In this document: positions 1 to 15,689 of the stretch, piece after piece | Layout: each line of letters begins with the position of its first letter | Position numbering within the stretch: position 1 is the first letter of the stretch | IMG/VR virus record: IMGVR_UViG_3300018083_000026 | Strand: one strand, 5' to 3' | DNA length: 20,000 nucleotides | Origin: an uncultured virus (IMG/VR IMGVR_UViG_3300018083_000026) | Lineage: Duplodnaviria; Heunggongvirae; Uroviricota; Caudoviricetes | Translations under genes and position numbers: made by a program | Notes under the pieces: generated by a model | Seen by the model: the letters and a program-made list of their open reading frames with translations, nothing else | What the model was told of the DNA's origin: nothing | Databases searched by the model: none

Positions 1-2272
1 TGAGATATATGAAGTCAATCTCCGGCAAGTCCGGTGGCAGCGGCGGGAAGAATATTACACCCAAGGGAGGAGGAGTTAAACTGTCAAAGGAATGAATGAT
101 AGGAACATCGGCCACCGCGCTAATCCGGATAACCTCCTGCCCCTGCGGTTCTATCTTCATCACTTTGAGATACTTAGTGATTTGATTGGAGACGCCAAAC
201 ATGAAAAGCATGGGCTCCGTTGTGCCGTCCTGCAAGAAGTCTATCTCCATTGCCGTGTTAATAGCTACTTGCTGGGCGTCCGCAGTCTGCCGAACTAGCA
301 AAGGCCCTATCACATTAGCCGTCCGCCCGCGCAATAGGATTTGGTGGTCCACGCCTTCCATAAATGTAACCGGTTCCGACAGCCAAAGATGGTAGAGTGT
401 TCCTTCGCCCCGCACGGCTTTGACCACATAGCCTGCCTGTCCCCAACTAGGCACGTCATGGCATACGGCTATCAAGTCTCCGTAAGTCGGGATGAATCCT
501 TCCATTCCCGTGTCGAAGGAAATGTTCTCCCGCAAGTATCGTTTGCACGCCATCATATACAAGCCGGCACGATAAGCATGCGTGCGATCTTGAACGCCCG
601 ACAACCTAATATCCTCCGGATGGTCGGAAGTTCCGCCGGGCAGGACAGCTACCACTTGCTCTTGTTTGTAGCCAGTCGATGGGTCGGTGTATTCAATTTG
701 GATGCTGTCATACTCATCCAAGTCCCAGAGCTTAATGTCCCATTGAAAAGTGCCACTAACGATATTCTCTTGGTTAAACATCGCCACCGGCACGTCTAGT
801 GGCCCGTCCCGCTTCACCGTGACTAAAGAACCAGTAAGCAAAGGAATGGCGCGTCCTACCCTAACCACGGTCTGAGCCGTAGCCCAAACAGTGCCAGCAT
901 CGCGAAAGATCCAATCGAAGTATTCATTGCGGCTAGTATAGAGCGCGTCCAACTCTAGCAAGACATCCCAATCGAAGTAACCCTCCTCTAGGCGCCCGCC
1001 ATACAAGCTGCGGAAGACATCCACCATTGCCCAGATAATTGAGCGAGTAGCTACCGGCTCCGTAAACCCTCCCGACTCATACATTGGCAGCTTGCGGGTG
1101 GCAATGACGTTAAATCTTTGCTGGGTGTTAGCGTTCAGATTGTTAGAAGCCCGTATCTTCACTGCTATCAAAGTCACATCTCCAAAACTATGCTCCTCCG
1201 AAGAAGAGATAAAGGAACGGAGCCCTTCCCAAACCACATCATTACCAGCCCGTGGAGAAAGCTTCTTGAGTCCTGTCCTCCGCAACCGGACTTCATATCT
1301 GCCGACAGGAACACCAGTAGAATAAGTCTTGCGCTGGGGAGTCGTCGTCTTTCCCGTAATAGTTATAGGGGAAGGGACAATTAAATCGGTATAGTCGCCC
1401 AGCGGCGTTCCTGTATTGTCTATCAGCCGCTTCTCCGCCTCCACCGTAATAGTCATATTCTGCAAGCTGCCGGAGGAACTCATTTTGTAGATGCCCTTGG
1501 GAAAAACTAAATCGATTTCGATCTTCTCCGTTTCTGAGCCCACCGGGCAGACGGGGAAGGGTCCAACCCAGCCGTCCGGGACATACTCCTCTTCATTAGG
1601 AGCAAGCAAAGTATGACCGCCGGCCTCCGGAGAGGTATAGACATTGGTGGCAAACAATGAGGTGGACCCGCCCGGAGGAATGACTTCATATTCTACTTCC
1701 TGATAGTCGGAGATGCTGGCGTCCCCAATCTGTATTGCTTCTATGTCATACTGCCCTTGGCCCAAACAGTAAAGCGAGTGTTGATATTGATCGTTTCCCG
1801 AGTATTGGTAGAAGGGACGGGAAGCCAGGGAAGGGTAGACCCGGTTTCGCCCGTAGCAAACTTCGATGGGCTCTCCCAAACGGATTTCATTGCTCTGCCC
1901 CTTGACAGAATAAACGGGATCGGATTCGGGCCCTCCGCCAGGAGGAGGCGGCACCGGCATCAACACCAGCACCAGCACCATGACAATCACCACAATGATT
2001 AAGGCAATGATAAGTTCAATGCCTTGCGGAATGGCAATGAAGTTTACCACGTCGCCCTCTTGAATAGGTCGGTCCCAATCCTTCCGCAGAAGCGGCTGGC
2101 CGTTGAAGAGGCAGATAGTGGGCAGGGGGAATTCCTGGGTTTCGGGATGGCGGCAAGCCACCCACTCCATGACTAGGATGCCACAAGGCACTTGATGCCG
2201 CTCCACCTTATAGGGGTTGAAAGAATCGGCTGTCTCAAACACCCATCCCATCTTTGGTCTTATTGTTTCCAT
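1..2272 (-). CDS. Tail tip / central tail fibre (host specificity, lambda J-like TipJ family), 3'-truncated by the window edge
   Basis: Missing from the ORF track, consistent with having no stop inside the window. I translated both ends by hand and they are in the same frame. It starts at ATG 2272 (alternative ATG 2251): METIRPKMGWVFETADSFNPY...ICLFNGQPLLRKDWDRPIQEGDVVNFIAIPQG (gpI/ubiquitin-like), then a hydrophobic stretch IELIIALIIVVIVMVLVLVLMP, then YSVKGQSNEIRLGEPIEVCYGRNRVYPSL...LYCLGQGQYDI, typical of TipJ N-termini. It follows NlpC/P60. Confidence 0.88.
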   Translation of the reverse strand, partial: METIRPKMGWVFETADSFNPYKVERHQVPCGILVMEWVACRHPETQEFPLPTICLFNGQPLLRKDWDRPIQEGDVVNFIAIPQGIELIIALIIVVIVMVLVLVLMPVPPPPGGGPESDPVYSVKGQSNEIRLGEPIEVCYGRNRVYPSLASRPFYQYSGNDQYQHSLYCLGQGQYDIEAIQIGDASISDYQEVEYEVIPPGGSTSLFATNVYTSPEAGGHTLLAPNEEEYVPDGWVGPFPVCPVGSETEKIEIDLVFPKGIYKMSSSGSLQNMTITVEAEKRLIDNTGTPLGDYTDLIVPSPITITGKTTTPQRKTYSTGVPVGRYEVRLRRTGLKKLSPRAGNDVVWEGLRSFISSSEEHSFGDVTLIAVKIRASNNLNANTQQRFNVIATRKLPMYESGGFTEPVATRSIIWAMVDVFRSLYGGRLEEGYFDWDVLLELDALYTSRNEYFDWIFRDAGTVWATAQTVVRVGRAIPLLTGSLVTVKRDGPLDVPVAMFNQENIVSGTFQWDIKLWDLDEYDSIQIEYTDPSTGYKQEQVVAVLPGGTSDHPEDIRLSGVQDRTHAYRAGLYMMACKRYLRENISFDTGMEGFIPTYGDLIAVCHDVPSWGQAGYVVKAVRGEGTLYHLWLSEPVTFMEGVDHQILLRGRTANVIGPLLVRQTADAQQVAINTAMEIDFLQDGTTEPMLFMFGVSNQITKYLKVMKIEPQGQEVIRISAVADVPIIHSFDSLTPPPLGVIFFPPLPPDLPEIDFIYL

Positions 2273-2667
2273 TCTCGATGACGGTAGAATTTCATGTGTC
2301 TAATCCCCTTGAGTTTAATCCCTTTTGGCGTGTCAGCAATGACCTTATGCCGACCCCAACAATGTATCACCTTTCCTCCGTCCGCCCCAATCCACAAGCC
2401 TACATGGTGCATCACTTCGCCCTGACTCATCGTCACAGCACAAGCATCAAAAGGCTTCTCCACTTTCACCCAGTCCTGCTCCACTTCCTTCTCGATAGCA
2501 GCACACAAAGCAGAGACTTCGCAAGCTGGTATCCCCGGGATGAAAGGCAAGGTGATTCCAAACTCATTCTCATACACCAGGCAAATCAACCCCCAGCAAT
2601 CCACACCACCTACCGTCCTCCCGCTTATCTCGTAAGGGAGCCCAATGTATTTAGTGGCCCAATGCAT
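2260..2667 (-). CDS. NlpC/P60 family tail tip assembly peptidase (lambda K-like)
   Basis: YIGLPY..GR...GVDCWGL (catalytic Cys), HHVGL (His) and VIHC motifs; canonical position between the L-like and J-like genes; TAATG overlap with the upstream gene. Confidence 0.92.
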   Translation of the reverse strand: MHWATKYIGLPYEISGRTVGGVDCWGLICLVYENEFGITLPFIPGIPACEVSALCAAIEKEVEQDWVKVEKPFDACAVTMSQGEVMHHVGLWIGADGGKVIHCWGRHKVIADTPKGIKLKGIRHMKFYRHREWKQ

Positions 2668-3167
2668 TATCCCAGCGAGGGAAAGCGGCTGCGGGTATAA
2701 AGCTCAGCCGGGAATTTCTTGTTGACGATATCCATGAAGGTGGCCCGCCCTACAACCTGGACCGCTGTGATCCGCACGTCTTTTAAGAACAACACCAGCG
2801 GAGGAATCATTTGTGGATGGGTAAGGTCATCACTGAGATAAGGACGATAGATAACTTTGATGGGCTCCGCAACCGACATGGCCGCATTCATAAAGGCCGT
2901 TACCCGCAAGCCTACATTGTCGATGGCGATGTTAAGACTTTGAAATCCTTCTTCGTTGGACGGTGGGAGGGAAAAAGAGAATCCCACCGGCTCGAACACC
3001 CGCTCCACTCCGTTCTCGTCCGTTGCCACCATGCCCCGCCGCGCCTGGACTAGGAAGATAGGGTCTTGCACACCTTCCTGGCGTATCTCAATCGTGTTGA
3101 GAATAACCTTGCTGGCCGGGGCCAGCGCGAAGGCTTCCTTGATGGCGTCCTGCAAAGATGAGTTCAT
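2667..3167 (-). CDS. DUF1833-like minor tail / tail tip protein
   Basis: 166 aa with ILNTIEIR, FEPVGFSFSLPP, LNIAIDNV, YRPYLSDDL and a C-terminal FPAELYTRSRFPSL; lies immediately upstream of NlpC/P60. Confidence 0.82.
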   Translation of the reverse strand: MNSSLQDAIKEAFALAPASKVILNTIEIRQEGVQDPIFLVQARRGMVATDENGVERVFEPVGFSFSLPPSNEEGFQSLNIAIDNVGLRVTAFMNAAMSVAEPIKVIYRPYLSDDLTHPQMIPPLVLFLKDVRITAVQVVGRATFMDIVNKKFPAELYTRSRFPSLG

Positions 3168-3169
3168 GC

Positions 3170-4417
3170 TTAAGCAAGCGTTCGGCCTACGTGGATGCGG
3201 AAGGAGAGGGTCAAAGTGTAAAGGGAGCTCTTTGTTTGTGCCTCGTCAAAGACACAAACAAAGGCGCACCCCGTTGACTCCGGATAAACAGAAGACCCGA
3301 ATCTATAGGTTCCCAAACCCATGCTCCGAAAATCAGTTCTATTAGCCGCTCCTACTGCAAAGGTTGTGGACTTATCCCGGAAGAAATCCAAAGCCACGTA
3401 GGAGGACAGTGTAACAATTTGATGAGCTGAATTAGCTGTGCGGTCCACCGCCGCCGTATTAAAGGAAGTAGGAGCAGAGGCATTAGGAGAAATCCAAATG
3501 TAACAAGAGTAAAGGCCACTCGCAGTATCGACTATGCAAGGCTCTAGACATCCTGTCCCATAAGACCCGCCCGCATCCGATTGCTGATAAGTCCCATCTG
3601 TTGCAATTCCAATGATGCCAGGAAGTTGCCATTGTTGGTCACCGTCCAGCGAGGTGGAAGGAAGCACGGGCCATCCGGTGATATTAAAAGTAGCCGGAGT
3701 CAGTGTGGTAGGAGACACCGCAATGGTGAGGGTATAGATAACTCTGAATTGCTGGCCGGCAATAAGCGGAACGCCGGAGGAGAGCTTGATGCGTGAAAAG
3801 AGATTATTACCCGGAGTAGACGTCCAAGAGAAACCCACCTCGTTATAAGTCACCCCTCCCGATTCCGCGGAGAAGTCGAAAGTCCTCTTTAACACACAAG
3901 AACTTCCCGACACGGAACTGCCGCAGTTACCCGACCCCGTTAGATAAACGCTGTGACGCTTGACCTCCGTAGCCAGTCCAACCTGACTAGTCTTATAAAT
4001 AGTGAACTCACCCGAGCTAAGGGTCCCTGACGGTATGTATTCGACATGGGTAGCGTCGGTTACCGCAGTGATCCGAACTTCAGTCCCGCTGCTAGACCCA
4101 CTTGACATTTTCAACATATCACCCACTGCCGCATTAGAAGTAAAATTGAAGGAGCCGGGTCCCGTAAAGGTAGTGCTAGCACCCGAGCCATTCTCTCCGG
4201 CTCCAGAAGCCGCATTGGTTGCCGTTGTGCCTGTCCCCGCCGCGCAATGGAGAAATGCATCACCCCAAACCACACTAGAGCATACCGTATTCAATCCCTG
4301 GTTGAGGATTAGGTTTTTCTGTGGCTCGTAGGAACGCACCACACGACCCTTTTCTACCACCTGACATTGGACGACACCACTCGCTTGTTGATAACAGTGA
4401 CTGATTATTTTGTTCAT
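3170..4417 (-). CDS. Tail-associated virion structural protein (baseplate/fibre-attachment-like)
   Basis: 415 aa, Gly/Ser/Thr-rich and beta-rich. The pattern KNLILNQGLN..AAGTGTT..GLATEVKR..YNEVG..LFSRI..FRVIYTLTI resembles phage tail collar/attachment domains. A-rich leader; no signal peptide. Confidence 0.65.
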   Translation of the reverse strand: MNKIISHCYQQASGVVQCQVVEKGRVVRSYEPQKNLILNQGLNTVCSSVVWGDAFLHCAAGTGTTATNAASGAGENGSGASTTFTGPGSFNFTSNAAVGDMLKMSSGSSSGTEVRITAVTDATHVEYIPSGTLSSGEFTIYKTSQVGLATEVKRHSVYLTGSGNCGSSVSGSSCVLKRTFDFSAESGGVTYNEVGFSWTSTPGNNLFSRIKLSSGVPLIAGQQFRVIYTLTIAVSPTTLTPATFNITGWPVLPSTSLDGDQQWQLPGIIGIATDGTYQQSDAGGSYGTGCLEPCIVDTASGLYSCYIWISPNASAPTSFNTAAVDRTANSAHQIVTLSSYVALDFFRDKSTTFAVGAANRTDFRSMGLGTYRFGSSVYPESTGCAFVCVFDEAQTKSSLYTLTLSFRIHVGRTLA

Positions 4418-4431
4418 AAATTTCTTTCTGT

Positions 4432-5259
4432 TTAGGCCAGAACATAGCTGCCTGATTGAAATCCGGCCGATGAAGAACTCGATTCAGAATGTGTAGTTGG
4501 AACAGAAGTAAGGGTATAGACACCCGACAGGAATCCACTGGAGGAAGAACCCTCGTCCGCTTGGTCCGGGGAAACTATCACGATAAGAGTGTAGACACCG
4601 GACAGAAATCCACCCACGGAGGAGCCCTCATCCGCCTCCGTGACAAAAACCACCACCGGCAGATAGACACCCGACAGGAATCCACTGGAGGAAGAACCCT
4701 CGTCCGCTTGGTCCGGAGCAAACGTTACCGACAAAAAGTGCTCCCCTGTTAGAAACCCGGCCAAACTAGTAGCCTCTTCTGGAGCCCGGCCCAATTCCCC
4801 ATCGGAAAAGGACGCTGATGTGCTGGCGCTGTCCGAAACGATTGATCGAATGTGCAAGGAAGGATATTCCTCTTGCTCCTCCTCATCCACTTCCAAAATA
4901 GCCGAGACAGTAAACAAGTTATCAGACTGAGAGAAATTATACTTGCCATCCAAAAAGGCATACGAGCGAGTGAACCTAATGAAAGTGGAAGGACCATCGG
5001 AAGGCTCAATCGTTTCCATCACAAAGAAGAGCGAGCCGTGTTTCAAATCGTTGATAAAGAAATTTCGGAACGTCACATAGGCGTCCGCCACAAAGTTCCA
5101 GGTGACGTCCACAACCTCGATGGGCTCCAGCTGCAATCGCCGAATCCGTTTGCGCCCGCTTTCCATCTCGGTGATTTGCGAGCGGGGTAGAATTTGATGT
5201 CTCCTCTCTACAAGAGGAGTATCAAGTCCTTCGGGCCAGTAAGGTAAATCGCTGTCCAT
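4432..5259 (-). CDS. Distal tail (Dit)-like protein 2 with C-terminal ~24-aa tandem repeats
   Basis: The N-terminal ~130 aa are visibly similar to 7774..8247 (WPxxLxxPL, RRR, VxW, YxxFxxFFxxxLxxG). The C-terminus has repeats of DEGSSxxGFLSGVY. Confidence 0.7.
   Translation of the reverse strand: MDSDLPYWPEGLDTPLVERRHQILPRSQITEMESGRKRIRRLQLEPIEVVDVTWNFVADAYVTFRNFFINDLKHGSLFFVMETIEPSDGPSTFIRFTRSYAFLDGKYNFSQSDNLFTVSAILEVDEEEQEEYPSLHIRSIVSDSASTSASFSDGELGRAPEEATSLAGFLTGEHFLSVTFAPDQADEGSSSSGFLSGVYLPVVVFVTEADEGSSVGGFLSGVYTLIVIVSPDQADEGSSSSGFLSGVYTLTSVPTTHSESSSSSAGFQSGSYVLA
4440..4800. repeat. Intragenic tandem repeat (~72-75 bp period), including an exact 54-bp duplication
   Basis: 4516..4569 is identical to 4663..4716 (ATAGACACCCGACAGGAATCCACTGGAGGAAGAACCCTCGTCCGCTTGGTCCGG). 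A degenerate copy lies at ~4592..4636, and weaker copies at the protein level flank these. Confidence 0.9.
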
Positions 5260-5262
5260 ATC

Positions 5263-6186
5263 TTAAGGCCATTTATATTGCCAGTTGTTAGTCCATGTCG
5301 ATGAGGAATAAACGAGAGGACTTCCATTGCCATACAGGAGCGCCACGTCATTAGTGCTGAGAGTCCGATTCCAATAAGCCATTTCATCGACCCCTCCTAA
5401 ATACCCATAGCTGCCGTCGATTAAATTGCCTATTCCAAAATAATTGTAAGGACTGCCCGTGTTCGTCGCCGATTGGAATAGCGGGATGACGGAGGCAATG
5501 GGCTGAGTCACCCGGGCGCCACCGTTGGTCTGGAACCACAGAGCCGGGATCTGCCCATCATATCCTAACGCCACGTGAATCCACTGATTAGTCCAGGTGC
5601 TGCCCGTGCTGAATAGCTTAACAAAGCCAATACCTGAGTTGGTTCCTGTGGTCATGTTGGCGAAGAACCCTAAGTAAGTGCCGCCGCTGTCGTAGGCCAG
5701 TTTATACTTTTGTCCCGGAGAGCCACCACCGGTCTGCCAAATGCCCAAAATAGTATTGAGACCCGTTTCCCTTCCAATCTTTAGCCACGCGGAGATCGTG
5801 AAGGAGTTCGTGCCGCCGCTAGAATAGTTGGTGGAACTGAGGTTGGGATTAGGAACACCATTTGTGATTCTCGAGGCGTAGGAGATGCTATTGGCCGCGC
5901 CGTTGAAGTAGACACCATTGCTAGATACTCCTACGACGTTGGTGGGCCCGTTGGCCCCAACCAGCGACTCCCGCATATACACACCGTCTAAATACTTGTC
6001 CGCCGTGCGAGTGTTATCCATCGTGAAATAGTCCAGCAAACCGTCGCCCAAGTTGGTGGTAGACCCACCGCTTCCGCCGGCCGCTGCGGGGATATACGCA
6101 AAGGGCCACGTCGGGTCCAGATGCGTAAAGGCCTGTCCGAGCAAGGAACAAACAGACAAAAGCAATATCGTGAGGATGTTCTTCAT
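5263..6186 (-). CDS. Signal-peptide-bearing LamG/ConA-like jelly-roll protein (putative receptor-binding or lectin protein)
   Basis: Start reassigned to ATG 6186, which forms an ATGA overlap with the upstream stop; 307 aa. N-terminus MKNILTILLLSVCSLLGQA. LamG_3-type motifs FTISAWLK, NQWIHVALGYDG and GGVDEMAYWNRTLSTNDVALLY. Confidence 0.82.
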   Translation of the reverse strand: MKNILTILLLSVCSLLGQAFTHLDPTWPFAYIPAAAGGSGGSTTNLGDGLLDYFTMDNTRTADKYLDGVYMRESLVGANGPTNVVGVSSNGVYFNGAANSISYASRITNGVPNPNLSSTNYSSGGTNSFTISAWLKIGRETGLNTILGIWQTGGGSPGQKYKLAYDSGGTYLGFFANMTTGTNSGIGFVKLFSTGSTWTNQWIHVALGYDGQIPALWFQTNGGARVTQPIASVIPLFQSATNTGSPYNYFGIGNLIDGSYGYLGGVDEMAYWNRTLSTNDVALLYGNGSPLVYSSSTWTNNWQYKWP

Positions 6187-7436
6187 TTGATAGGATAGGA
6201 CGCGCCGTTGGTCCACTTCTTTCCGTTGTTGATAAAAGTCACGGCAGTGACGTTGGTCACGTTCCACGTTCCATTGGTCGCCAGCATACCCGAAGGCGGA
6301 GTCATGTTCCATACGGAGGCGGTCGAGTTTGTGATAAAGTAAACAGTTGTTTGAATGTTGGTGTGGGATACTCCGGTGAACCCAGACCAAGCAAAAGCCG
6401 CATTGGTGCCGAAATCCCGATATTCTACAAAGCCACCAAAGACGATCGCTTGCGTGCCAGCGTTGGTGGGATAAAGGACCGTGCCTAGAATGGACGTCGT
6501 TGCCTGGAGCAAGGGGAAGGTTCCTTGAATTTGATTTGCATAGAGGGTGGCACTTGTTACAGGGACGTTCACAGAAATATGAGAGTCGTAGTTTCCCCCG
6601 ATAACAAAGTTCCAAGTAGGAGTATTGACTACCGCGTCGGCTTTCCATCGCAACATCAGACGTGAACCATAAGGTAAGTTCGTTGCCGTGTTCACATTTA
6701 TCGTCGTGCTGAAGATCGTAGGTGTAGCAGACTCGCTGAACAACTGCGGACCGGACGAGGCCAATTCTATGATGGTGTCGTTAGTGAACCAAACGTATAT
6801 CTCCGGATGAGCGGTAATGGATTGTGCGCCGGCTCCACCAGAGACGTAGACATACGTTTGCAAGTGAACCGGCCCCTCTTCAATCCGACTTACCGTATTA
6901 GTAGTGATGCGGGATAAGAAATAAACTCCCGCTGTAGGAACGGCGATAGAATTTGTAGCACCCGCAGCCACCGGCGTATCGATCATCGTTGTAAGGTTAG
7001 TGGCGATGCCAATATCCGTGTTAGTGACGGCGGAGAAGAAGTAGTGCTGATTAAGATTCGCTACCAAAGCCCTAACATAATTGGTGGAGGCTACTCCGTT
7101 CGTGTCAGGCGCGAGCAATGTAGATGGCATCACGCTGTCCTTGAGGACGAATAGATTGGTGTCGACGCCACCCACTTCAGAAGCCAAAGCAAACTCGTCC
7201 GCATCATGAGTGATAATGTCCCCGGCATCCGAAATGGCGGAGGAGGGGATATTGGTCAGCCCCGTGCCGCCGCCGGCAACATTGTCCGCTTGCAAGGTTG
7301 CGACGTTGGTAATGGACTTTTGATTTCCGTTGAGGTTGCTTTGCAGATAAGCCCGGTTCAGAGGCTGGCGAGTGGCGGCGAAGGCTGTTAAGTCGAGCAG
7401 TGAAATCAGGACGATTAATCTAAGTAAGGTTTTCAT
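6183..7436 (-). CDS. Signal-peptide-bearing, Thr-Asn-rich tail-fibre-like protein
   Basis: 417 aa. MKTLLRLIVLISLLDLTAFA|A is a Sec/SPase I-like signal with AxA. It has fibre-like motifs GGGTGLTNI and ASTNYV, 18 TN dipeptides, and ATGA coupling on both sides. Confidence 0.65.
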   Translation of the reverse strand: MKTLLRLIVLISLLDLTAFAATRQPLNRAYLQSNLNGNQKSITNVATLQADNVAGGGTGLTNIPSSAISDAGDIITHDADEFALASEVGGVDTNLFVLKDSVMPSTLLAPDTNGVASTNYVRALVANLNQHYFFSAVTNTDIGIATNLTTMIDTPVAAGATNSIAVPTAGVYFLSRITTNTVSRIEEGPVHLQTYVYVSGGAGAQSITAHPEIYVWFTNDTIIELASSGPQLFSESATPTIFSTTINVNTATNLPYGSRLMLRWKADAVVNTPTWNFVIGGNYDSHISVNVPVTSATLYANQIQGTFPLLQATTSILGTVLYPTNAGTQAIVFGGFVEYRDFGTNAAFAWSGFTGVSHTNIQTTVYFITNSTASVWNMTPPSGMLATNGTWNVTNVTAVTFINNGKKWTNGASYPIK

Positions 7437-7777
7437 GAGGCTGTTATGGCATCTCCTTTTAATGTATAGTAAAGCCGATAGTTAGCGTTCGATGTTATGC
7501 CGCTAAGTTGGAAGGAGAAACCGTCAGCGGACAAAGAACCTCGAATAGGATTGGCGAAGATGGAATCGCCGTCAGCAGGAATCTCGACGGTGAGCTGGAC
7601 CCTAGTAGGAACAAAGGGAAGGCCCAACCCAGTCACCACCCCGCCTTCCTCTTCGTTGCCCAAATCATATGAGCCGTTGTAAGTAGGATCGGTTCCAATA
7701 AACGGGATAAGCAAGGCGTTGGCTATCGCCTCATCTACCTGGGCACCGGTATAGGCTGATTGATATGGCGTGGTCAT
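7433..7777 (-). CDS. Small tail protein, putative fibre adaptor
   Basis: 114 aa. The N-terminal YQSAYTGAQVDEAI resembles tail-fibre N-terminal attachment motifs and is followed by a small beta domain. ATGA overlaps on both sides. Confidence 0.55.
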   Translation of the reverse strand: MTTPYQSAYTGAQVDEAIANALLIPFIGTDPTYNGSYDLGNEEEGGVVTGLGLPFVPTRVQLTVEIPADGDSIFANPIRGSLSADGFSFQLSGITSNANYRLYYTLKGDAITAS

Positions 7778-8247
7778 ACGTGAACACTATAGAGGAATTC
7801 GTCCAACGTGGCAAAGGGAGTCTCCGCCGGGAGAACGTAGAAGTAGATCCAATCAATAATAGGAGAGGGGTCGGCGCCGGCGAGGCTGAGCCTGACAATA
7901 TCTAAGTCGGCTTCGACCACCCAGTTCCCATCCTGATAGTCCGCCGCATAACTGGAAGTAAAACGGACCATCCACTCCGTCAAGTCCGTCGCCCGTGGAT
8001 AACGTAACTCAATTAGAAAGAGGCTGGCGCCATTGCCCAGGGTGTCGAGGAAGAACGCCTTAAAAGCTTCGTATTCACTAATCGACAGGACCCACTGAAC
8101 ACTGGCGCCGACCACAGAAGCGTGGAACCGGCGCCGGCGTTGTATCTTCGGATTGCTCAGCTTGCTAGCCAGGGTGACGTGCAAAGGTAGCCCACTGTAA
8201 TCCATTAGTGGAAGAGGCAGGGCAGAGGGCCACGCGGTCATACTCAT
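7774..8247 (-). CDS. Distal tail (Dit)-like protein 1
   Basis: 157 aa, directly downstream of the tape measure gene with an ATGA overlap. WPSALPLPL...RRRRF...VQW...FKAFFLDTLGNGASLF pattern. Confidence 0.75.
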   Translation of the reverse strand: MSMTAWPSALPLPLMDYSGLPLHVTLASKLSNPKIQRRRRFHASVVGASVQWVLSISEYEAFKAFFLDTLGNGASLFLIELRYPRATDLTEWMVRFTSSYAADYQDGNWVVEADLDIVRLSLAGADPSPIIDWIYFYVLPAETPFATLDEFLYSVHV

Positions 8248-10493
8248 TGTTGGCCCCTCCGCAGTCCAAAGGTGGACTCCATAGAGCGAGTGACATCGCC
8301 ACGGCCATCGCGTATCTCCGAACTGAGCTCATTCTTAACCCGCTTGATCATTACTTCGATCACCCGCTCGCCGCCCTCGTTCCGCTCTTTAACTTCCGGC
8401 TTGGCGTCGGTATAATTGTTAATAACGATCCGCACATTACCTCCGCTGCCTCCGCCTAAGGCATCGTTAGGGATGATGTTGCCGCCGCGCGAGGGCACAA
8501 ACATTTCTGGCCCCTTCTCTCCTACCAAGAAAGCTTTGTCACTAGTTACGGGACCACCTAACACCTTCTCTCCTCCGAACTCTAGCTTCACTGCCTGAAT
8601 GGAAGAAACAATAGTGGCCGTAGCTGCTATCACAGATCCCATCGCCACAATGTTCGCAGGGTAGGGCAAGTATAAAGCACTCGTAATACCTTGGAGGATC
8701 TTAACCGTGGCGTCTGCCACAGCGAAAGCTTTCGACATGGCGAATATCGTTTTGTAGGCTGCCGACTGTTCGCCGCCAAACGCCTTCGCCATGCCCGCCA
8801 TGTCATCGAACATTTTCGAGGAGGCGCTTAAGGCAACTTCCGCCGCAGCCAACTGAAGCGCCTTGAGATCCCGGTTGCCCTTCTCGATAGCAGCATTCCT
8901 CGCGTCGATTGTTTCCTGATTTAGTGTTTTCTCCCGAACCCCGGCGTCTTGCAGGAACGCCAGCCGGTCCTCGATCATCTGCTTCTCTTTTTCGAACTGG
9001 CTTGCTTGGGCAACTAAGGGGTCGGCGCCCAATCCAGTCATGGGTTGCTTGCCTGTTCCTTTCAATTGCTCCATCAAGCCACCGGAAATTCCCAACTCCT
9101 GGGCGGATTGAGGAGTCAACCCCATGTTTTCCAACCGACTCTTGCCTCCTCCCATCGCACTTAAAGCCGCCATCATCTTCTGCGAATTGCCTATGATGTC
9201 TTGCGTATCCTTGGCAACCGCATCCTTTATCTCCTTCGACCTAACCTTAATAGGCTCCATTATCTTGGCGCCCTTGTTAGCCCAATCCTCCCACTGTTTG
9301 AGGATGTCGTCAGCGGCGCCCTTCGTCAGTTCAATTACTACCCCGCCCGTCCGGTCCACCGAGTCTGTTACAATCTTACTGGATTGTGCGACGCCCTGGG
9401 CAATGGCGCCGGAAACATCTCCCCAGCCTTTGGCTACTGTCCTCCCTATATCTGCTACTCCTATACCAACCGTCGCGAAGTCTTGGGTTAACAGAGCCTT
9501 CATGACTCCACCCACCTGGCCTACTAAACTTCCCAGGTCCCCTAACCCTGTCATGATATTCTTTAGAACCTTCCACCAAACCCCTATCAGCTGAATCACA
9601 GCATCAATCCCGTTCCGAAAGACTTCGAGTTCGACAGTTACATTAGTGGCAATGATTGTAGCCACTGACCGCAATACCGTCCAAATAGTCAAGAGCCCTA
9701 GCCGGAGTATGTTCACCACATCAGCCATAGTTTGGAACCCGGCGATAATTCCATCGGCCACAATCCGCGCGTGGTCCCCTTCCTTAGCCCACTCTATAAA
9801 TCTTTCCGTCAACTCTATCCACACCGGCAAGAGCTGTTCCGCCACCATGTTAAATATGCCACTAAACATGGTGTGAATACGCTTCAGGTTGTCGTTGAAC
9901 GTCTGGGCGTTGGCAGTAAATTCCTTACTGATAACGGCGCCAAACTGTTTAGCCTCGTCCATCTGTTCGCGAATTGCTTTGCTGCCCTGGTTGAGGAAGG
10001 GCAGCATCTCTGCCCCTGCACGTCCAAACCGTTCGTAGGCCATCCGCAACTTGGCAGACTCGTCCGTCGTAGCCGCGAAGGCGTCTGCCTGCTGGATAAT
10101 TGACTCAGTGAGATTTTTGGAGTGCTCGCCCTGCTCGTCTAAGAACTTAGAGAGGAATTTAGTCGACTGGACCAGCTCCTGCGTGCTCATGTCCGCCAGC
10201 CCGGCGGAGTAAGACAAGGCTGAAAACGCTTCCACCGTTTGCCCAGCCTTCTGCGCCATCTTCCCCATCTCATCGGCCGCGTTAATAGCCTCCTTGGTAA
10301 GCTTGAGAGAGATAGCTGCCGCTGCCGCTACCACCGCCGCGGCAATCCCTCCCACCGCGATAGCCATGGTGTCCGAAGCCTTCGCCACGCTCGTCTTTGC
10401 CAAGTTCATCCCCTTGACAAGCTCTACTGAGTTAGCCGTCAGCTTGACGTAGAGAGTTCCTAAGTCTCCAGCGCCTTCAAAGGGTGCAGGCAT
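8244..10493 (-). CDS. Tail tape measure protein
   Basis: 749 aa, Ala-rich and helical. N-terminal LGTLYVKLTANS; C-terminal GGPV....FLVGEKGPEMFVP...G.IIPN motif; follows the chaperone pair. Confidence 0.95.
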   Translation of the reverse strand: MPAPFEGAGDLGTLYVKLTANSVELVKGMNLAKTSVAKASDTMAIAVGGIAAAVVAAAAAISLKLTKEAINAADEMGKMAQKAGQTVEAFSALSYSAGLADMSTQELVQSTKFLSKFLDEQGEHSKNLTESIIQQADAFAATTDESAKLRMAYERFGRAGAEMLPFLNQGSKAIREQMDEAKQFGAVISKEFTANAQTFNDNLKRIHTMFSGIFNMVAEQLLPVWIELTERFIEWAKEGDHARIVADGIIAGFQTMADVVNILRLGLLTIWTVLRSVATIIATNVTVELEVFRNGIDAVIQLIGVWWKVLKNIMTGLGDLGSLVGQVGGVMKALLTQDFATVGIGVADIGRTVAKGWGDVSGAIAQGVAQSSKIVTDSVDRTGGVVIELTKGAADDILKQWEDWANKGAKIMEPIKVRSKEIKDAVAKDTQDIIGNSQKMMAALSAMGGGKSRLENMGLTPQSAQELGISGGLMEQLKGTGKQPMTGLGADPLVAQASQFEKEKQMIEDRLAFLQDAGVREKTLNQETIDARNAAIEKGNRDLKALQLAAAEVALSASSKMFDDMAGMAKAFGGEQSAAYKTIFAMSKAFAVADATVKILQGITSALYLPYPANIVAMGSVIAATATIVSSIQAVKLEFGGEKVLGGPVTSDKAFLVGEKGPEMFVPSRGGNIIPNDALGGGSGGNVRIVINNYTDAKPEVKERNEGGERVIEVMIKRVKNELSSEIRDGRGDVTRSMESTFGLRRGQQ

Positions 10494-10496
10494 AGG

Positions 10497-10832
10497 TCAG
10501 CTGCCTCCTATCTTCATGTTAAGGGACCGCATCCAAGCAGACTTAGATTTAGAGGGCGGTTTCTCAACCTTAGTTGGGGCATCAGTTTTATTCATTAAGA
10601 AATCTTTCGTCTTAACCGACTTGGGATTCTTTACCAGGCCCCGCCTAATCTCCGCAGCGATCTGCGCCAAGTAAATATCCTGCTTCGTGTTTCGTTCTTC
10701 CTCGCGCCGGAGGAATGTCAACCAGTCAATGAACTCGCTGTAGGTTATCCGAGCCCTTAGCTCAGCCACTGAATAACCTAGGTGAGAAGCTACTTGGAAC
10801 CAACCCAGCTTCTCACCCGTCATCCGTTTTTT
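10497..10832 (-). CDS. Tail assembly chaperone, frameshifted C-terminal extension (gpT-like part of gpGT)
   Basis: The ORF is in the -1 frame relative to 10820..11191 and is open across the slippery site A AAA AAC. VASHLGYSVAELRARITYSEFIDW is typical of gpT-like domains. An independent ATG exists at 10823. Confidence 0.85.
   Translation of the reverse strand, partial: KKRMTGEKLGWFQVASHLGYSVAELRARITYSEFIDWLTFLRREEERNTKQDIYLAQIAAEIRRGLVKNPKSVKTKDFLMNKTDAPTKVEKPPSKSKSAWMRSLNMKIGGS
10781..10832 (-). promoter_or_regulatory. Programmed -1 ribosomal frameshift signal: A_AAA_AAC heptamer plus downstream hairpin
   Basis: Heptamer at 10832..10826, correctly phased (TCA AAA AAC GGA TGA). A perfect 11-bp stem, GGTGAGAAGCT/AGCTTCTCACC (10817..10807 with 10791..10781), starts 8 nt downstream. 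Confidence 0.88.
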
Positions 10833-11191
10833 GATTCAGCTACCGCTTTCTTCTCTGCGACTGCCGTCAGATGGTTTAGCTTTTGAGCTTCCTCAAATAA
10901 GGAGGCTACGACTGATGCTGGCCACCCTTGAATAGTTTCCCGGGTAACCTTGCTTCCATCTACCCGCAAGAAAAGGCAGCGGGAAACCAAATCCGCTTGC
11001 AGTCCATCGAACTTCGTGACTCCGCCCGGCTTGCCGTCCTTGTCCATCTGCACGCGGTCTCCAAGCGTATCCAGATAGGCATCCCGGACGGCTGCCGTCA
11101 TTTCGCGAAGCTCGTAGTCTTGTGATTTTCCGTTCCCACCTTCCAACGCTACTGGGATGGTGGAGGCTACTAAGGTGAATTTCAGAGCCAT
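10820..11191 (-). CDS. Tail assembly chaperone (gpG-like)
   Basis: 123 aa between the tail tube and tape measure genes. YELREMTAAVRDAY...LVSRCL...WPASVVASLFEEAQKLN; ends in a slippery sequence. Confidence 0.88.
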   Translation of the reverse strand: MALKFTLVASTIPVALEGGNGKSQDYELREMTAAVRDAYLDTLGDRVQMDKDGKPGGVTKFDGLQADLVSRCLFLRVDGSKVTRETIQGWPASVVASLFEEAQKLNHLTAVAEKKAVAESKNG

Positions 11192-11197
11192 AAAATT

Positions 11198-11644
11198 TTA
11201 GCTCTCCACCGCTTCGGCGTAGACGGGAGCCACTTCTTCCCCTAGGAGGTTTCGCATTCCTGTTTGAATGCTAAGTTTGGCCGTCGGCTGCTCGCCTTCC
11301 GTATGGGTTGCCGGAGTAAACTCCTCAATCCATCCGTAGAACGAAATGGTTGAGTTGTCGGGGAAGGTAACAGTGATGAGCTGGTTGACGCCTATCTGTC
11401 CCCAAACGTCATCGATGGCAATCGTGGCATAGGCCACAGTGGCGCTCACTTGCGTGAGGGATTTCAACTTGCGCGGCGCACTCGTCCTATAGGCAATGTT
11501 CCGCATGGTTGTGGTTTCGATGGGCCCTCCCGCCGTGTAGCCCGGAGGAGTGACGTCCTTCTCATAAAGTTTGACGAGAGGGAGGTTGGCGAATGTGATA
11601 ATGGTTGAGAAACCATCATCTAATCTTAATTCGTTTTCGTTCAT
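11198..11644 (-). CDS. Major tail (tube) protein
   Basis: 148 aa with VTPPG..GGPIETTTM, ITVTFPDNSTISFYGWI and GEQPTA; position after the tail terminator; strong A-rich leader shared with the capsid gene. Confidence 0.85.
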   Translation of the reverse strand: MNENELRLDDGFSTIITFANLPLVKLYEKDVTPPGYTAGGPIETTTMRNIAYRTSAPRKLKSLTQVSATVAYATIAIDDVWGQIGVNQLITVTFPDNSTISFYGWIEEFTPATHTEGEQPTAKLSIQTGMRNLLGEEVAPVYAEAVES

Positions 11645-11665
11645 CTTGTTTCTTTCTTGGTTGAT

Positions 11666-12094
11666 TTAGTTACTGCTCATAGTGACCACTGCGTTAATAG
11701 TGAAGAGATGACGACGACGATCGCCTTCCTGCTCCACTCCCAATGGAATGACATCTCCGCTCCGGGATACATTGTGGAGAATGTAGCTGTTCGCGGAGTC
11801 CATTACAACTATCGTCCGGCACTGGGCGTCGAGCGCCAAAGCAATGTCCGTCACTTTCTTTATGACGTCGATATAGCTAGACCCCCGCACTACCACCTGG
11901 ACTCCGGGATGGACTATTTTCTCCCCGGTCCGCATTATCCGCCCGTTCATCTTCCCCGCCGTATCATAAATGCCTAGCGCATTGTCCGGCGTGCCGGGAA
12001 GGAAAGACACGAACACGGGCCAAGTCCCCGCTTGCTCCGTCCCTAAGTCGAGCTCGATGAGAAGCTGGCGGATGACATCGGCAGGAGAATTCAT
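11666..12094 (-). CDS. Tail terminator / tail completion protein (minor capsid 3-like)
   Basis: 142 aa with PDNALGIYDTAG, PGVQVVVRG and LG.....RRHLFTIN; position before the tail tube gene. Confidence 0.8.
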   Translation of the reverse strand: MNSPADVIRQLLIELDLGTEQAGTWPVFVSFLPGTPDNALGIYDTAGKMNGRIMRTGEKIVHPGVQVVVRGSSYIDVIKKVTDIALALDAQCRTIVVMDSANSYILHNVSRSGDVIPLGVEQEGDRRRHLFTINAVVTMSSN

Positions 12095-13809: not shown

Positions 13810-13810
13810 G

Positions 13811-15648: not shown

Positions 15649-15689
15649 AATGTTTCTTTCTTGTTTGGTTGATATTGTTTAGGGCCAGC

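What the first reader, a model, noticed from the sequence alone, without database searches (positions are those of the whole stretch)
5263..7436. Tail-fibre/lectin-like genes with Sec signal peptides inside the tail-tip module: candidate exported virion components
Seen: two adjacent genes, chained by ATGA overlaps to the Dit-like and adaptor genes, begin with signal-peptide-like N-termini (MKTLLRLIVLISLLDLTAFA|A and MKNILTILLLSVCSLLGQA|F). One has fibre-type motifs (GGGTGLTNI, ASTNYV); the other has a LamG/ConA jelly-roll. Established: tailed virions assemble in the cytoplasm, and their fibres normally lack signal peptides. Inference: these receptor-binding-like parts are exported, matured in the periplasm, and joined to the tail at or after lysis. 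Alternatively they are secreted receptor-masking or decoy proteins expressed with the late genes. Their coupling and orientation argue against independent morons.
Basis: partly seen in the sequence, partly recalled or inferred. Interest (0 to 1): 0.85.

Follow-up and report, generated by a model that had tools for sequence, protein, structure and literature searches.

The report
Phage tail fibres carrying export signals
Two sugar-binding, fibre-like proteins at the tail tip of an uncultured long-tailed phage carry conserved bacterial export signals, and one is predicted to plug into a neighbouring signal-less protein, so part of the host-recognition gear may be exported and joined to the virus only at lysis.

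Summary
Genes 6183-7436 (417 aa) and 5263-6186 (307 aa, LamG lectin fold) lie on the minus strand inside a lambda-like tail-tip operon. They are chained by ATGA overlaps and both start with Sec-type signal peptides.

- **Signals conserved:** both genes keep the signal in 6 of 6 syntenic loci. By a crude rule, 81 of 100 family representatives have one.
- **Different from cultured relatives:** in Janthinobacterium and Acinetobacter phages the genes in this slot have no signal.
- **Fibre-like modules:** each protein has a conserved mature N-terminus and swappable C-terminal domains. The folds resemble phage fibre and spike domains.
- **Predicted docking:** a complex prediction places the first residues after the predicted cleavage site of the 417-aa protein in the neighbouring signal-less 114-aa protein (score 0.87; best control 0.00).
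- **Precedent:** Cellulophaga phage phi18:3 has three MS/MS-annotated structural proteins with such signals.

Best reading (about 0.5): a split side fibre whose distal parts are exported and join the particle at lysis. Main rival (about 0.3): exported non-virion lectins, such as receptor masks.

Export, cleavage and virion presence are all untested, and the host is unknown. This scan has noted similar cases on other DNA. My five literature searches found no paper describing exported tail fibres.

The parts
7433..7777 (-). 114-aa protein without a signal peptide; predicted trimeric socket for the 417-aa protein
   Evidence: No Pfam, PHROG or NCBIfam hit. Conserved at 69-80% in L003, L004 and L012, with a 51% homologue in L026. 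Predicted complex with residues 21-130 of the 417-aa protein: ipSAE 0.87, best control 0.00; its contact residues are 44, 66, 69-73, 76, 90, 92-94.
6183..7436 (-). 417-aa fibre-like lectin gene with signal peptide
   Evidence: ORF and ATGA overlaps. No Pfam or PHROG hit. 100 representatives in the 1.84-billion-protein library. AF2 model with mean pLDDT 78.
7377..7436 (-). Signal peptide of the 417-aa protein (codons 1-20, predicted cut AFA|A)
   Evidence: n/h/c regions read. Conserved with hydrophobic substitutions in P0002, P0004, P0011 and the loci L002, L003, L004, L009, L012.
7341..7376 (-). Mature N-terminal docking motif ATRQPLNRAYLQ (residues 21-32)
   Evidence: Residues 21-28 and 32 form the predicted interface. 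The motif P[LI]N.. L[QR]S[NDH] is found in 12 of 103 stored family proteins, each time a few residues after a signal peptide.
6552..7055 (-). Central beta jelly-roll domain (residues 128-295), carbohydrate-binding-module-like
   Evidence: pLDDT mostly above 90. Foldseek PDB matches: CocE C-terminal jelly roll, CBM4, CBM28, TNF-like. BFVD matches: uncultured Caudovirales proteins including Peptidase S74 and collagen-repeat fibres, E 1e-15 to 1e-9.
6186..6500 (-). C-terminal beta-sandwich domain (residues 313-417), the most widespread module of the family
   Evidence: Lies at the extreme C-terminus of most hits. Model pLDDT 84.3. Best structural matches are phage capsid-spike, tailspike and baseplate domains at Z 5.8-6.8, all below the Z 8 reliability mark.
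5263..6186 (-). 307-aa LamG lectin gene with signal peptide
   Evidence: No other full-length homologue in the 5.8-billion-protein search.
6130..6186 (-). Signal peptide of the 307-aa protein (codons 1-19; cut GQA|F, or LLG|QA if the Bacteroidota Q-rule applies)
   Evidence: Read. Conserved as ...C/W-S/A-LLGQA or AAMGQA in L002, L003, L004, L009, L012.
6058..6129 (-). Conserved mature N-terminus (xTHxDPTWP...AAGGSGG) before the swappable domain
   Evidence: Only the first 47 residues are shared with the 502-aa orthologue of L004 (51% identity, E 9e-10). The same head sits on the 204-aa (L003) and ~375-aa (L012) variants.
5341..5823 (-). Laminin_G_3 / ConA-like jelly roll (residues 122-282)
   Evidence: Pfam PF13385, E 2.2e-11.
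7774..8247 (-). First phrog_384 protein (157 aa), in the distal-tail position directly after the tape measure
   Evidence: phrog_384, E 3.8e-15. 31% identity over 78 aa to the gene after the tape measure of Janthinobacterium phage Donnerlittchen, E 4e-8.
4432..5259 (-). Second phrog_384 protein (275 aa) with five C-terminal GF(L/Q)(S/T)G-type repeats
   Evidence: phrog_384, E 1.2e-8, residues 7-129. Repeats read from the translation.
3170..4417 (-). 415-aa tail-fibre protein without a signal peptide
   Evidence: phrog_4176 'tail fiber protein', E 9.2e-19. N-terminus not hydrophobic.
8244..10493 (-). Tape measure protein
   Evidence: phrog_9483, E 5.2e-37, plus 17 further families.
2..3167 (-). 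Tail-tip core: DUF1833 minor tail protein, NlpC/P60 protein, and gpJ-like tip protein with an N-terminal membrane-like segment
   Evidence: PF08875 E 1.2e-32, PF00877 E 1.7e-7, phrog_469 E 9.8e-132 and PF24801. 39.6% identity to the tip attachment protein of phage Donnerlittchen.

Best explanation
This is a split accessory (side) fibre of a lambda-like siphophage.

**Parts.** The signal-less 114-aa protein (7433-7777) forms a socket made in the cytoplasm. The 417-aa protein has a signal peptide, a fibrous N-terminal stalk, a CBM-like jelly roll and a C-terminal beta-sandwich. The 307-aa protein has a signal peptide, a short conserved head, a Gly-rich linker and a LamG lectin domain.

**Proposed mechanism.** The 417-aa and 307-aa proteins are exported by Sec and cleaved by signal peptidase I. 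Cleavage frees the conserved N-terminus ATRQPLNR. That N-terminus docks into the 114-aa socket when cytoplasm and periplasm mix, either at holin-mediated membrane permeabilisation or after lysis. The LamG protein probably rides on the same complex through its own conserved mature N-terminus. Its exchangeable C-terminal domain would provide glycan specificity.

**Shown here:** gene order and coupling, the signal-peptide features and their conservation, the modular architecture, the folds, and the in-silico docking.

**Inferred:** actual export, cleavage, the timing of joining, presence on the virion, and the partner of the LamG protein.
For: 1. **Phage tail-tip context.** The order is tape measure, phrog_384, 114 aa, 417 aa, 307 aa, phrog_384, tail fibre, DUF1833, NlpC/P60, gpJ. 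The genes are coupled by ATGA overlaps. Promoter- and terminator-like sites show no excess: 3 against 6.6 expected, and 8 against 8.9.
2. **Signal-less genes in the same slot of cultured relatives.** In phages found through gpJ, the position after the phrog_384-like gene holds signal-less accessory genes: a GDSL esterase of 463 aa in Donnerlittchen and a 658-aa protein in DMU1.
3. **Signals conserved.** Both genes keep them in 6 of 6 syntenic loci: the window, L002, L003/L010, L009, L004/L014 and L012. Among 100 family representatives, 75 pass a crude rule and 6 more pass from an internal Met or with a long n-region. Eight are fragments with non-Met starts, and 11 fail, several of which look like truncated leaders.
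4. **Twin-arginine leaders in a second lineage.** In L005 and L018 the gene after the family member carries RRDFIKKG or RRRFIKKG.
5. **Fibre-like modularity.** A conserved mature N-terminus sits on varied bodies in 12 of 103 stored proteins. There are four different C-terminal bodies behind the same head of gene 2. Some relatives carry GDSL, YadA-head, collagen, Ig or LamG modules.
6. **Folds.** The central domain matches domains of S74-chaperone and collagen-repeat phage proteins. The best matches of the C-terminal domain are phage spike and tailspike domains at Z 5.8-6.8.
7. **Predicted docking.** Three copies of the 114-aa protein were folded with three copies of residues 21-130. ipSAE was 0.87, 0.87 and 0.88, with a best control of 0.00. 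There were 83-90 confident contacts and the partner pLDDT was 85-87. In calibration the mark was reached by 116 of 157 solved complexes and 2 of 215 mismatched pairs. The interface is residues 21-28 and 32, starting at the predicted cleavage site. I found no solved relative by sequence, so a pass from memory is unlikely.
8. **Same layout elsewhere.** In L005 a 164-aa protein equals the first ~130 residues of long tail-fibre PHROGs. In L018 there is a SU10_adaptor-like protein. In each locus a signal-bearing family member of 1127 or 1085 aa lies downstream: directly after the adaptor in L018, and after three small ORFs in L005.
9. **Precedent.** Cellulophaga phage phi18:3 gp085, gp086 and gp087 are annotated as structural proteins 'based on experimental MS/MS proteomics analysis' and begin with signal-peptide-like N-termini ending in Q. 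The 8 other such proteins I translated do not.
Against: - There are no proteomic, expression or host data for this phage.
- The 114-aa protein is not shown to be a virion part. It has no family hit and no longer homologues.
- In L021 a homologous signal-bearing pair lies between the terminase and the RecT/exonuclease genes, not in a tail module. The pair is a 583-aa family member plus a 247-aa weak LamG match (E 1.1e-4, below the Pfam cut-off).
- In L026 the 114-aa homologue is followed by a different protein.
- The phage has signal-less gpJ and a signal-less 415-aa fibre, so these proteins may be dispensable for adsorption.
- No reason for periplasmic maturation is visible. The mature parts have no cysteine. 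NxS/T sequons are at the level I estimated by hand from composition (counts). The Bacteroidota D[ST][AILVMT] motif is not enriched: 2 against 1.5 expected, and 0 against 0.8.
- A conserved basic residue at +3 of the mature 417-aa protein is, from my recollection of E. coli work, unfavourable for Sec export.
- The complex job assumed 3:3 stoichiometry, used an alignment of 3 rows for chain 1, and is unlike the tool's calibration set.
- All matches to the C-terminal domain lie below Z 8.
- Signal peptides were judged by a crude hydrophobicity and charge rule, not by SignalP.
Confidence: 0.5

Rival explanations
1. These are exported lectin-type accessory proteins that never join the virion. Made with the late genes, they are sent to the periplasm or cell surface. 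There they bind the host's own surface glycans or receptors. This would mask receptors against superinfection and protect progeny from adsorbing to debris, or it would alter the cell surface. In function they would resemble T5 Llp, Cor or lambda Lom, but be much larger and derived from fibre modules.
For: - The export signals are conserved, and twin-arginine leaders occur on neighbouring proteins in L005 and L018.
- In L021 the pair lies outside a tail module.
- Both proteins have carbohydrate-binding-type folds.
- L005 and L018 carry a run of further exported proteins next to them: a beta-helix enzyme, lipoproteins, and in L005 an outer-membrane-like protein.
- Passages read in a paper on Porphyromonas gingivalis phages (PMC10367356) interpret Q-rule signal-peptide genes of unknown function as ways to modify the host.
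- Exported receptor-blocking proteins encoded beside receptor-binding genes are an established kind (T5 Llp, PMC9586334; I saw the listing and the start of the abstract only).
Against: - Docking of the mature N-terminus into a signal-less neighbour is predicted with clean controls. A free secreted lectin would have no need for that.
- The layout of a conserved N-terminal head with an exchangeable body is the layout of virion-anchored fibres.
- The genes are tightly coupled by translation inside the tail-tip operon, with no promoter or terminator of their own.
- Signal-bearing proteins are MS/MS-annotated structural proteins in phi18:3.
- The 417-aa protein has no lipobox.
Confidence: 0.3
2. 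The hydrophobic N-termini do not lead to export. The proteins are ordinary cytoplasmic fibre parts. Their leader-like helix would serve another purpose, such as transient membrane tethering during assembly or removal by a phage protease. Alternatively it is retained as an anchor.
For: - Tailed-phage assembly is cytoplasmic in all studied models (established knowledge).
- The predicted partner, the 114-aa protein, has no signal.
- A basic residue lies close to the predicted cleavage site.
- The P. gingivalis phage paper notes capsid proteins with predicted signal peptides that the authors think are removed by the prohead protease (PMC10367356, passages).
Against: - The full n/h/c layout with small -3/-1 residues is kept although the sequence diverges.
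- By my own reading of the N-termini printed (not computed), roughly a third of the signal-bearing relatives expose Q at +1. That is the Bacteroidota signal-peptidase-I signature (PMC5837995, abstract read).
- Twin-arginine motifs on neighbouring proteins in L005 and L018 point to true export.
- The docking interface starts exactly after the predicted cut.
Confidence: 0.1

Closest known systems
Cellulophaga phage phi18:3 gp085, gp086, gp087 (KC821620; cultured podovirus of Cellulophaga baltica, Pachyviridae)
   Same: These are three adjacent large proteins that begin with signal-peptide-like N-termini. Their record annotates them as structural proteins from MS/MS of virions.
   Different: No sequence similarity to the window's proteins was found: tblastn of the 417-aa protein against 50,697 phage records gave no match. 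It is a different phage type and its host is known. The record makes no statement about export or processing. I could not open the phage's original paper.
Signal-less accessory genes in the same tail-tip slot of cultured relatives (Janthinobacterium phage vB_JliS-Donnerlittchen gp12, a GDSL esterase; Acinetobacter phage DMU1 gp20)
   Same: They occupy the same position, after the tape measure and the phrog_384-like gene and before DUF1833, the peptidase and gpJ. The gpJ proteins are 38-40% identical.
   Different: They have no signal peptide. Each is a single large protein rather than three. Neither resembles the 114-aa protein.
Exported phage proteins encoded in or beside tail-fibre genes: T5 Llp, Cor of T1/phi80-like phages, lambda Lom
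   Same: They are phage-encoded, carry export signals, lie next to receptor-recognition genes and act at the envelope (Llp: PMC9586334, listing and start of abstract; Cor and Lom recalled).
   Different: Those are small lipoproteins or an outer-membrane barrel with no fibre modules (sizes recalled). Here the proteins have 417 and 307 residues and fibre- and lectin-type domains. They also have a conserved docking head and a predicted signal-less partner. The 417-aa protein has no lipobox.
Split or branched fibres built on a separate adaptor (for example LtfA/LtfB of T5-like DT57C, PMC4728585, listing only; CBA120 tailspikes, whose TSP4 N-terminal domain is a weak structural match)
   Same: A small virion-bound piece carries separately encoded distal receptor-binding proteins through their N-termini.
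   Different: In those systems all parts are made without signal peptides and assemble in the cytoplasm (recalled).

Membership tests
Sec / signal peptidase I signal peptide | Basic n-region, hydrophobic h-region of about 8-15 residues, small uncharged residues at -3 and -1 | tested here: met
   MK..R / LIVLISLL / AFA|A and MK / ILTILLLSVCSLL / GQA|F. Only 2 of 25 window ORF products show this.
Sec / signal peptidase I signal peptide | Feature kept in homologues despite sequence divergence | tested here: met
   6 of 6 syntenic loci keep it on both genes. Of 100 representatives, 75 pass the crude rule and 6 more pass from an internal Met or with a long n-region.
Sec / signal peptidase I signal peptide | Prediction by a trained predictor (SignalP) and experimental cleavage | not testable with these tools
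   No such predictor or experiment was available.
Lipoprotein (signal peptidase II) signal | Lipobox L-[AS]-[GA]-C at the end of the h-region | tested here: inconclusive
   The 417-aa protein has no cysteine. The 307-aa protein has LSVC at residues 10-13. Orthologues have LSTC, LSAC or CSAW, so the Cys is not conserved in L004 and L012 and lies unusually early.
Pfam Laminin_G_3 (PF13385), ConA-like lectin/glucanase fold | Score above the gathering threshold over most of the profile | tested here: met
   44.6 bits against 27.6, profile positions 12-151 of 151. The Atlas feature and structure neighbours are LamG_3 clusters.
Phage tail fibre / receptor-binding protein | Match to a named fibre family (Pfam or PHROG) | tested here: not met
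   Neither protein has a hit, and there is no tblastn match in 50,697 phage records.
Phage tail fibre / receptor-binding protein | Conserved N-terminal anchor with exchangeable distal domains, encoded in the tail-tip module | tested here: met
Phage tail fibre / receptor-binding protein | Fold shared with known fibre or spike domains | tested here: inconclusive
   The central domain matches uncharacterised phage proteins with S74 or collagen modules and generic jelly rolls in the PDB. The C-terminal domain's matches to phage spike domains are Z 5.8-6.8, below the Z 8 mark.
Phage tail fibre / receptor-binding protein | Homotrimer attached to the virion | tested here: inconclusive
   Residues 21-130 score pLDDT 85-87 when folded as three copies with the 114-aa protein. 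In the monomer model most of residues 23-109 lie below 50. Other stoichiometries were not tested, and virion presence cannot be tested here.
Type IX secretion C-terminal sorting domain (Por_Secre_tail) | Pfam/NCBIfam match or fold match of the C-terminal ~100 residues | tested here: inconclusive
   No Pfam or NCBIfam hit at E <= 0.01. It is not among the 50 best structural matches, which does not exclude it.
Twin-arginine (Tat) signal, on the neighbouring proteins of L005 and L018 only | S/T-R-R-x-F-L-K-type motif before a hydrophobic stretch | tested here: met
   MVRRDFIKKGLLFVP... and MNRRRFIKKGALFVP.... The two proteins are 65% identical. They are not significantly similar to the window's LamG protein (E 0.48).

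The most novel reading that the evidence does not exclude
Some tailed phages finish their particles outside the cytoplasm. Distal receptor-binding modules would be exported by Sec (or Tat). Signal-peptidase cleavage would create the very N-terminus that plugs into a signal-less socket on the tail. Export would therefore license assembly, which would happen only when holin lesions or lysis bring virions and periplasmic contents together. The ~100-cluster family found here would be one widespread set of such export-licensed fibre modules. It includes cassettes that move between siphovirus-like and podovirus-like genomes.
Probability: 0.35. Interest if true: 0.9.

Novelty: new variant of a known kind. 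Interest (0 to 1): 0.72.

Why it matters
Textbook tailed-phage assembly is entirely cytoplasmic. If receptor-binding parts are routinely exported and attached at lysis, several things change:
- how host range is predicted from genomes, because signal-bearing 'hypothetical' genes in tail modules would be receptor-binding proteins;
- how such fibres should be expressed for phage engineering and diagnostics, that is, without the leader and perhaps in the periplasm;
- how lysis timing and particle maturation are thought to be linked.

This case offers a concrete, testable pair: a 114-aa socket and a docking peptide that begins at the predicted cleavage site. It also defines a previously unnamed protein family, of which 81 of 100 representatives carry a leader. 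If the proteins are instead non-virion lectins, they would be an unusually large, fibre-derived class of receptor-masking or surface-modifying factors.

Tried and rejected
- **Whole genome:** none is held for this window, so the host could not be read from flanks.
- **Host or prophage search:** two scans of 185,579 species genomes with the C-terminal and central domain patterns found no relative. Two alignments were too diverse for pattern scans and were replaced by smaller ones.
- **Cultured phages:** tblastn of the 417-aa protein gave no match.
- **307-aa protein:** no full-length homologue other than itself.
- **114-aa protein:**
  - no longer homologues;
  - no similarity to the slot proteins of Donnerlittchen or DMU1;
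  - no solved relative.
- **Second phrog_384 protein against the Donnerlittchen 238-aa protein:** no similarity. 'Between two Dit-like genes' therefore does not hold for that phage.
- **Glycosylation idea rejected:**
  - NxS/T sequons match a hand estimate from composition (counts);
  - the Bacteroidota O-glycosylation motif is not enriched in either protein.
- **Disulfide idea rejected:** there are no cysteines in the mature parts.
- **Moron signature:** promoter- and terminator-like sites show no excess, and GC is like that of the neighbours.
- **Type IX sorting-domain idea:** no support.
- **Tat-leader neighbours in L005 and L018:** I could not show that they are LamG proteins.
- **Literature:** five full-text searches listed no paper describing export of tailed-phage fibres. 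They cannot show that none exists. The original paper on the Cellulophaga phages is not held.
- **Atlas neighbours of the 417-aa protein:** scores were only 0.77-0.80, so they are leads only.
Full report
**What is in the window.** All long ORFs lie on the minus strand and form a late operon of a lambda-like siphophage.

| Coordinates | Product |
|---|---|
| 16158-17804 | protease/scaffold-like protein |
| 15690-16124 | decoration protein |
| 14587-15648 | HK97-type capsid protein |
| between the capsid and chaperone genes | connector and tube genes |
| 10820-11191, 10497-10823 | G/T-like chaperones |
| 8244-10493 | tape measure |
| 7774-8247 | 157-aa phrog_384 protein |
| 7433-7777 | 114-aa protein |
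| 6183-7436 | 417-aa protein (part of the finding) |
| 5263-6186 | 307-aa protein (part of the finding) |
| 4432-5259 | second phrog_384 protein, with C-terminal repeats |
| 3170-4417 | 415-aa tail fibre (phrog_4176) |
| 2667-3167 | DUF1833 protein |
| 2260-2667 | NlpC/P60 protein |
| 2-2272 | gpJ-like tip protein |

No genome is held for the window.

**Observation check.** The coordinates, the ATGA overlaps at 7777/7774, 7436/7433 and 6186/6183, the quoted N-termini and both motifs are as described. The 307-aa gene and the next gene are 3 nt apart and do not overlap.
- The LamG call is solid: PF13385, E 2.2e-11, and LamG_3 neighbours in the Atlas.
- Both N-termini show the n/h/c layout of Sec signal peptides with small -3/-1 residues.
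- Among the 25 ORF products examined, only these two combine a strongly hydrophobic N-terminal stretch with a preceding positive charge.
- Start codons that would skip the hydrophobic segment lie at codons 48 and 46, inside conserved sequence.
- I had no SignalP. For relatives I used a crude rule: Met start, mean Kyte-Doolittle hydropathy of at least 2.3 over 8 residues beginning within the first 15, and net positive charge before it.

**Conservation of the signals.** Six syntenic loci show both genes: the window itself (=L001), L002 (=L011), L003 (=L010), L009, L004 (=L014) and L012. In all six, both genes start with a signal peptide. The residues differ but stay hydrophobic, and the cleavage motif is kept.

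An exhaustive profile-free search of 1.84 billion representatives found 100 proteins at E <= 1e-3, of which 42 are at E <= 1e-10. By the crude rule:
- 75 have a signal peptide;
- 6 more have one after an internal Met or a long n-region;
- 8 are fragments with non-Met starts;
- 11 fail, and several of these look like truncated leaders, for example MAILTLILAIALPGLGA.

By my own reading of the N-termini printed (not computed), roughly a third of the signal-bearing members expose Q at +1. In most Bacteroidetes signal-peptidase-I substrates, cleavage exposes an N-terminal glutamine (PMC5837995, abstract read).

**Architecture of the family.** The hits map to three modules of the 417-aa protein:
- a short N-terminal motif;
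- a central domain (about residues 110-310);
- a C-terminal domain (about residues 315-417) that lies at the very end of most relatives.

Relatives range from 61 to 1592 residues. Most have no Pfam domain. Among the 54 long relatives scanned:
- 1 has a GDSL esterase domain;
- 2 have YadA-head repeats;
- 1 has collagen, Ig and LamG modules.

The motif P[LI]N..L[QR]S[NDH] occurs in 12 of 103 stored family proteins, always a few residues after a signal peptide.

Gene 2 behaves the same way. The leader plus about 25 mature residues (xTxxDPxWP...AGGxGG) are conserved, but the body differs: LamG here, 204 aa in L003, 502 aa in L004 and about 375 aa in L012.

**Folds.**
- The AF2 model of the 417-aa protein has mean pLDDT 78. 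Confidence is high for residues 128-295 and 325-417, while most of residues 23-109 are below pLDDT 50.
- The central domain is a jelly roll. It resembles the CocE C-terminal domain, CBM4/CBM28 and TNF-like domains.
- In the viral structure library it resembles uncharacterised proteins of uncultured Caudovirales, several of which carry Peptidase S74 or collagen repeats (E 1e-15 to 1e-9).
- The C-terminal domain modelled alone (pLDDT 84.3) best matches these phage domains:

| Structure | Z |
|---|---|
| Pseudomonas phage Pa223 capsid spike | 6.8 |
| Acinetobacter phage Solidus tailspike | 6.2 |
| CBA120 TSP4 | 6.0 |
| Klebsiella phage baseplate protein | 5.8 |

- These four rank above most unrelated rows; one non-phage entry (6o38, Z 5.5) scores close to them and the remaining rows fall to Z 4.2 and lower. 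All lie below the tool's Z 8 reliability mark.

**Comparison with cultured relatives.** gpJ is 38-40% identical to the tip proteins of Janthinobacterium phage Donnerlittchen and of Acinetobacter DMU1-like phages. In those phages the gene after the tape measure is homologous to the window's first phrog_384 gene (E 4e-8). It is followed by one large accessory protein without a signal peptide: a 463-aa GDSL esterase, or a 658-aa protein. The slot is therefore an accessory-fibre slot, and the export signals are specific to the window's lineage. The Donnerlittchen 238-aa protein is not similar to the window's second phrog_384 protein.

**Other genomic contexts.**
- **L005 and L018** are a different, podovirus-like lineage; the closest cultured relatives of an L005 structural protein are Ab31-like Pseudomonas phages and Pelagibacter podophages.
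  - Each locus encodes a signal-less anchor. In L005 it is a 164-aa protein equal to the first ~130 positions of long tail-fibre PHROGs. In L018 it is a SU10_adaptor-like protein.
  - A signal-bearing family member of 1127 or 1085 aa lies downstream: directly after the adaptor in L018, and after three small ORFs in L005.
  - After it come a protein with a twin-arginine leader, a signal-bearing beta-helix protein, and further exported or lipoproteins.
- **L021** has a 583-aa family member plus a signal-bearing 247-aa protein with a weak LamG match (E 1.1e-4, below the Pfam cut-off). The pair lies between the large terminase and the RecT/exonuclease genes. This counts against an obligatory link to a tail module.
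- **L026** has a 51% homologue of the 114-aa protein, followed by an unrelated 377-aa protein with an internal hydrophobic segment.

**Docking test.** I folded three copies of the 114-aa protein with three copies of residues 21-130 of the 417-aa protein, using my own alignments.
- The score was 0.87, 0.87 and 0.88, with a best control of 0.00.
- There were 83-90 confident contacts, and the partner pLDDT was 85-87.
- The runs agree in at least 96% of contacts.
- In calibration the mark was reached by 116 of 157 solved complexes and by 2 of 215 mismatched pairs. The tool warns that this multi-copy job with my own alignments is unlike that calibration.
- The interface uses residues 21-28 and 32 of the 417-aa protein. 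These are the first residues after the predicted cleavage site, and they contain the family's conserved motif. On the 114-aa protein it uses residues 44, 66, 69-73, 76, 90 and 92-94.
- Neither protein has a solved relative by sequence, so a pass from memory is unlikely.

The model supports binding but does not show it. It says nothing about where or when the two proteins meet.

**Precedent.** Following a lead from earlier notes of this scan, I opened the GenBank record of Cellulophaga phage phi18:3.
- gp085, gp086 and gp087 are annotated as 'structural protein, annotation based on experimental MS/MS proteomics analysis'.
- They begin MKNKITIIMILMSISFGYSQ, MKKTIYILSILLLTISGVSAQ and MKHTFSIVLFFILSIGLNAQ.
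- The 8 other MS/MS structural proteins I translated (gp099, 104, 112-115, 120, 121) have no such N-terminus.
- I did not examine gp123 or the genes before gp075, and I could not read the original paper.

This shows that signal-bearing proteins can be found in virion preparations of a cultured phage. It does not show processing or the route taken.

**Host.** The host is unknown. The hints are weak:
- gpJ/K/L-type tail tips like those of phages of diderm bacteria;
- only 4 of 19 genes have a GGAG/GAGG core at a usable spacing;
- the capsid and tube genes have A-rich leaders sharing CAAGAAAGAAACA, a pattern I recall as typical of Bacteroidota and some other phyla;
- the conserved G-Q-A at the end of the gene-2 leader;
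- Bacteroidota and viruses are the commonest taxa of the nearest LamG clusters.

**Interpretation.** Real export is well supported as an inference, at about 0.85-0.9. Whether the exported proteins end up on the particle is open.
- The predicted docking into a signal-less neighbour, the anchor-plus-variable-body layout, the slot, the fibre-like folds and the phi18:3 precedent favour a split fibre completed at or after lysis (about 0.5).
- That canonical holin lesions are large enough to let cytoplasm and periplasm mix before the outer membrane fails is my recollection. It is what makes such joining physically plausible.
- The L021 context, the known paradigm of exported receptor-masking proteins, the presence of signal-less gpJ and a 415-aa fibre, and the lack of any visible reason for periplasmic maturation (no cysteines, no glycosylation-motif excess) keep the non-virion reading alive (about 0.3).
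- A non-exported hydrophobic N-terminus is least likely (about 0.1).

**Novelty and literature.** Five full-text searches listed no paper describing export of tailed-phage fibres. One paper (PMC10367356, passages read) notes Q-rule signal-peptide genes of unknown function in Porphyromonas phages and reads them as host-modifying. This scan has noted signal-bearing fibre genes on other DNA many times. The present case adds three things:
- a lambda-like siphophage tail tip;
- a defined, previously unnamed family;
- a docking prediction that ties the signal-peptidase site to the attachment site.

Noticed in passing
window 13060-14001 (-): A 313-aa ORF in the head-tail connector region matches phrog_4603 'alpha-2,3-sialyltransferase' (E 3.2e-29) and weakly matches Pfam MptE-like. 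It may be a glycosyltransferase-like enzyme inside the structural operon. Its start overlaps the ORF at 12722-13156.
   Followed up: no
window 4432-5259 (-), C-terminal half: The second phrog_384 protein ends in five repeats of the type SSSSGFLSGVY(T)L. They are also present, with variation, in L003, L004 and L012. They could be repeated docking strands for fibres.
   Followed up: no
window 11645-11666 and 15649-15670 (-): The leaders of the tube-position gene (11198-11644) and of the capsid gene share the A-rich string CAAGAAAGAAACA and have no Shine-Dalgarno core. Only 4 of 19 genes have a GGAG/GAGG core at spacing 3-12.
   Followed up: partly
window 7786-7814 (-): A promoter-like site, TTGCCA-17-TATAGT (10 of 12 matches), lies just upstream of the 114-aa gene, inside the end of the first phrog_384 gene. 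The region as a whole has fewer such sites than shuffles do.
   Followed up: no
window 2-2272 (-), residues about 87-105 of the product: The gpJ-like protein carries a very hydrophobic segment near its N-terminus (mean hydropathy 3.81 over 19 residues). This is consistent with a fused gpI-like tail assembly part.
   Followed up: no
L005 3385-13123 and L018 586-9826: There are runs of consecutive proteins with Sec, Tat or lipoprotein leaders beside the fibre genes. They include a beta-helix protein (Pfam Beta_helix, E 2.4e-7, in L005), small lipoproteins in L018 and, in L005, a 205-aa outer-membrane-like protein ending in F.
   Followed up: partly
L026 5331-6464: After the 114-aa homologue lies a 377-aa ORF. 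It has a basic, helix-rich N-terminal ~90 residues, then a hydrophobic segment ending in GGC (lipobox-like). It is unrelated to the window's 417-aa protein.
   Followed up: no
L028 5001-5915, L029 4995-5351: The N-terminal motif (S/K)xYTGAQVD(E/D)A(I/V) of the 114-aa protein also opens a 304-aa and a 118-aa protein in other viral contigs. In L028 the neighbouring ORFs look fibre-like to my eye; they were not searched against any library.
   Followed up: partly
window 19304-19774 (-): A 156-aa ORF has a hydrophobic N-terminal segment but a net negative charge before it. It has no family hit.
   Followed up: no
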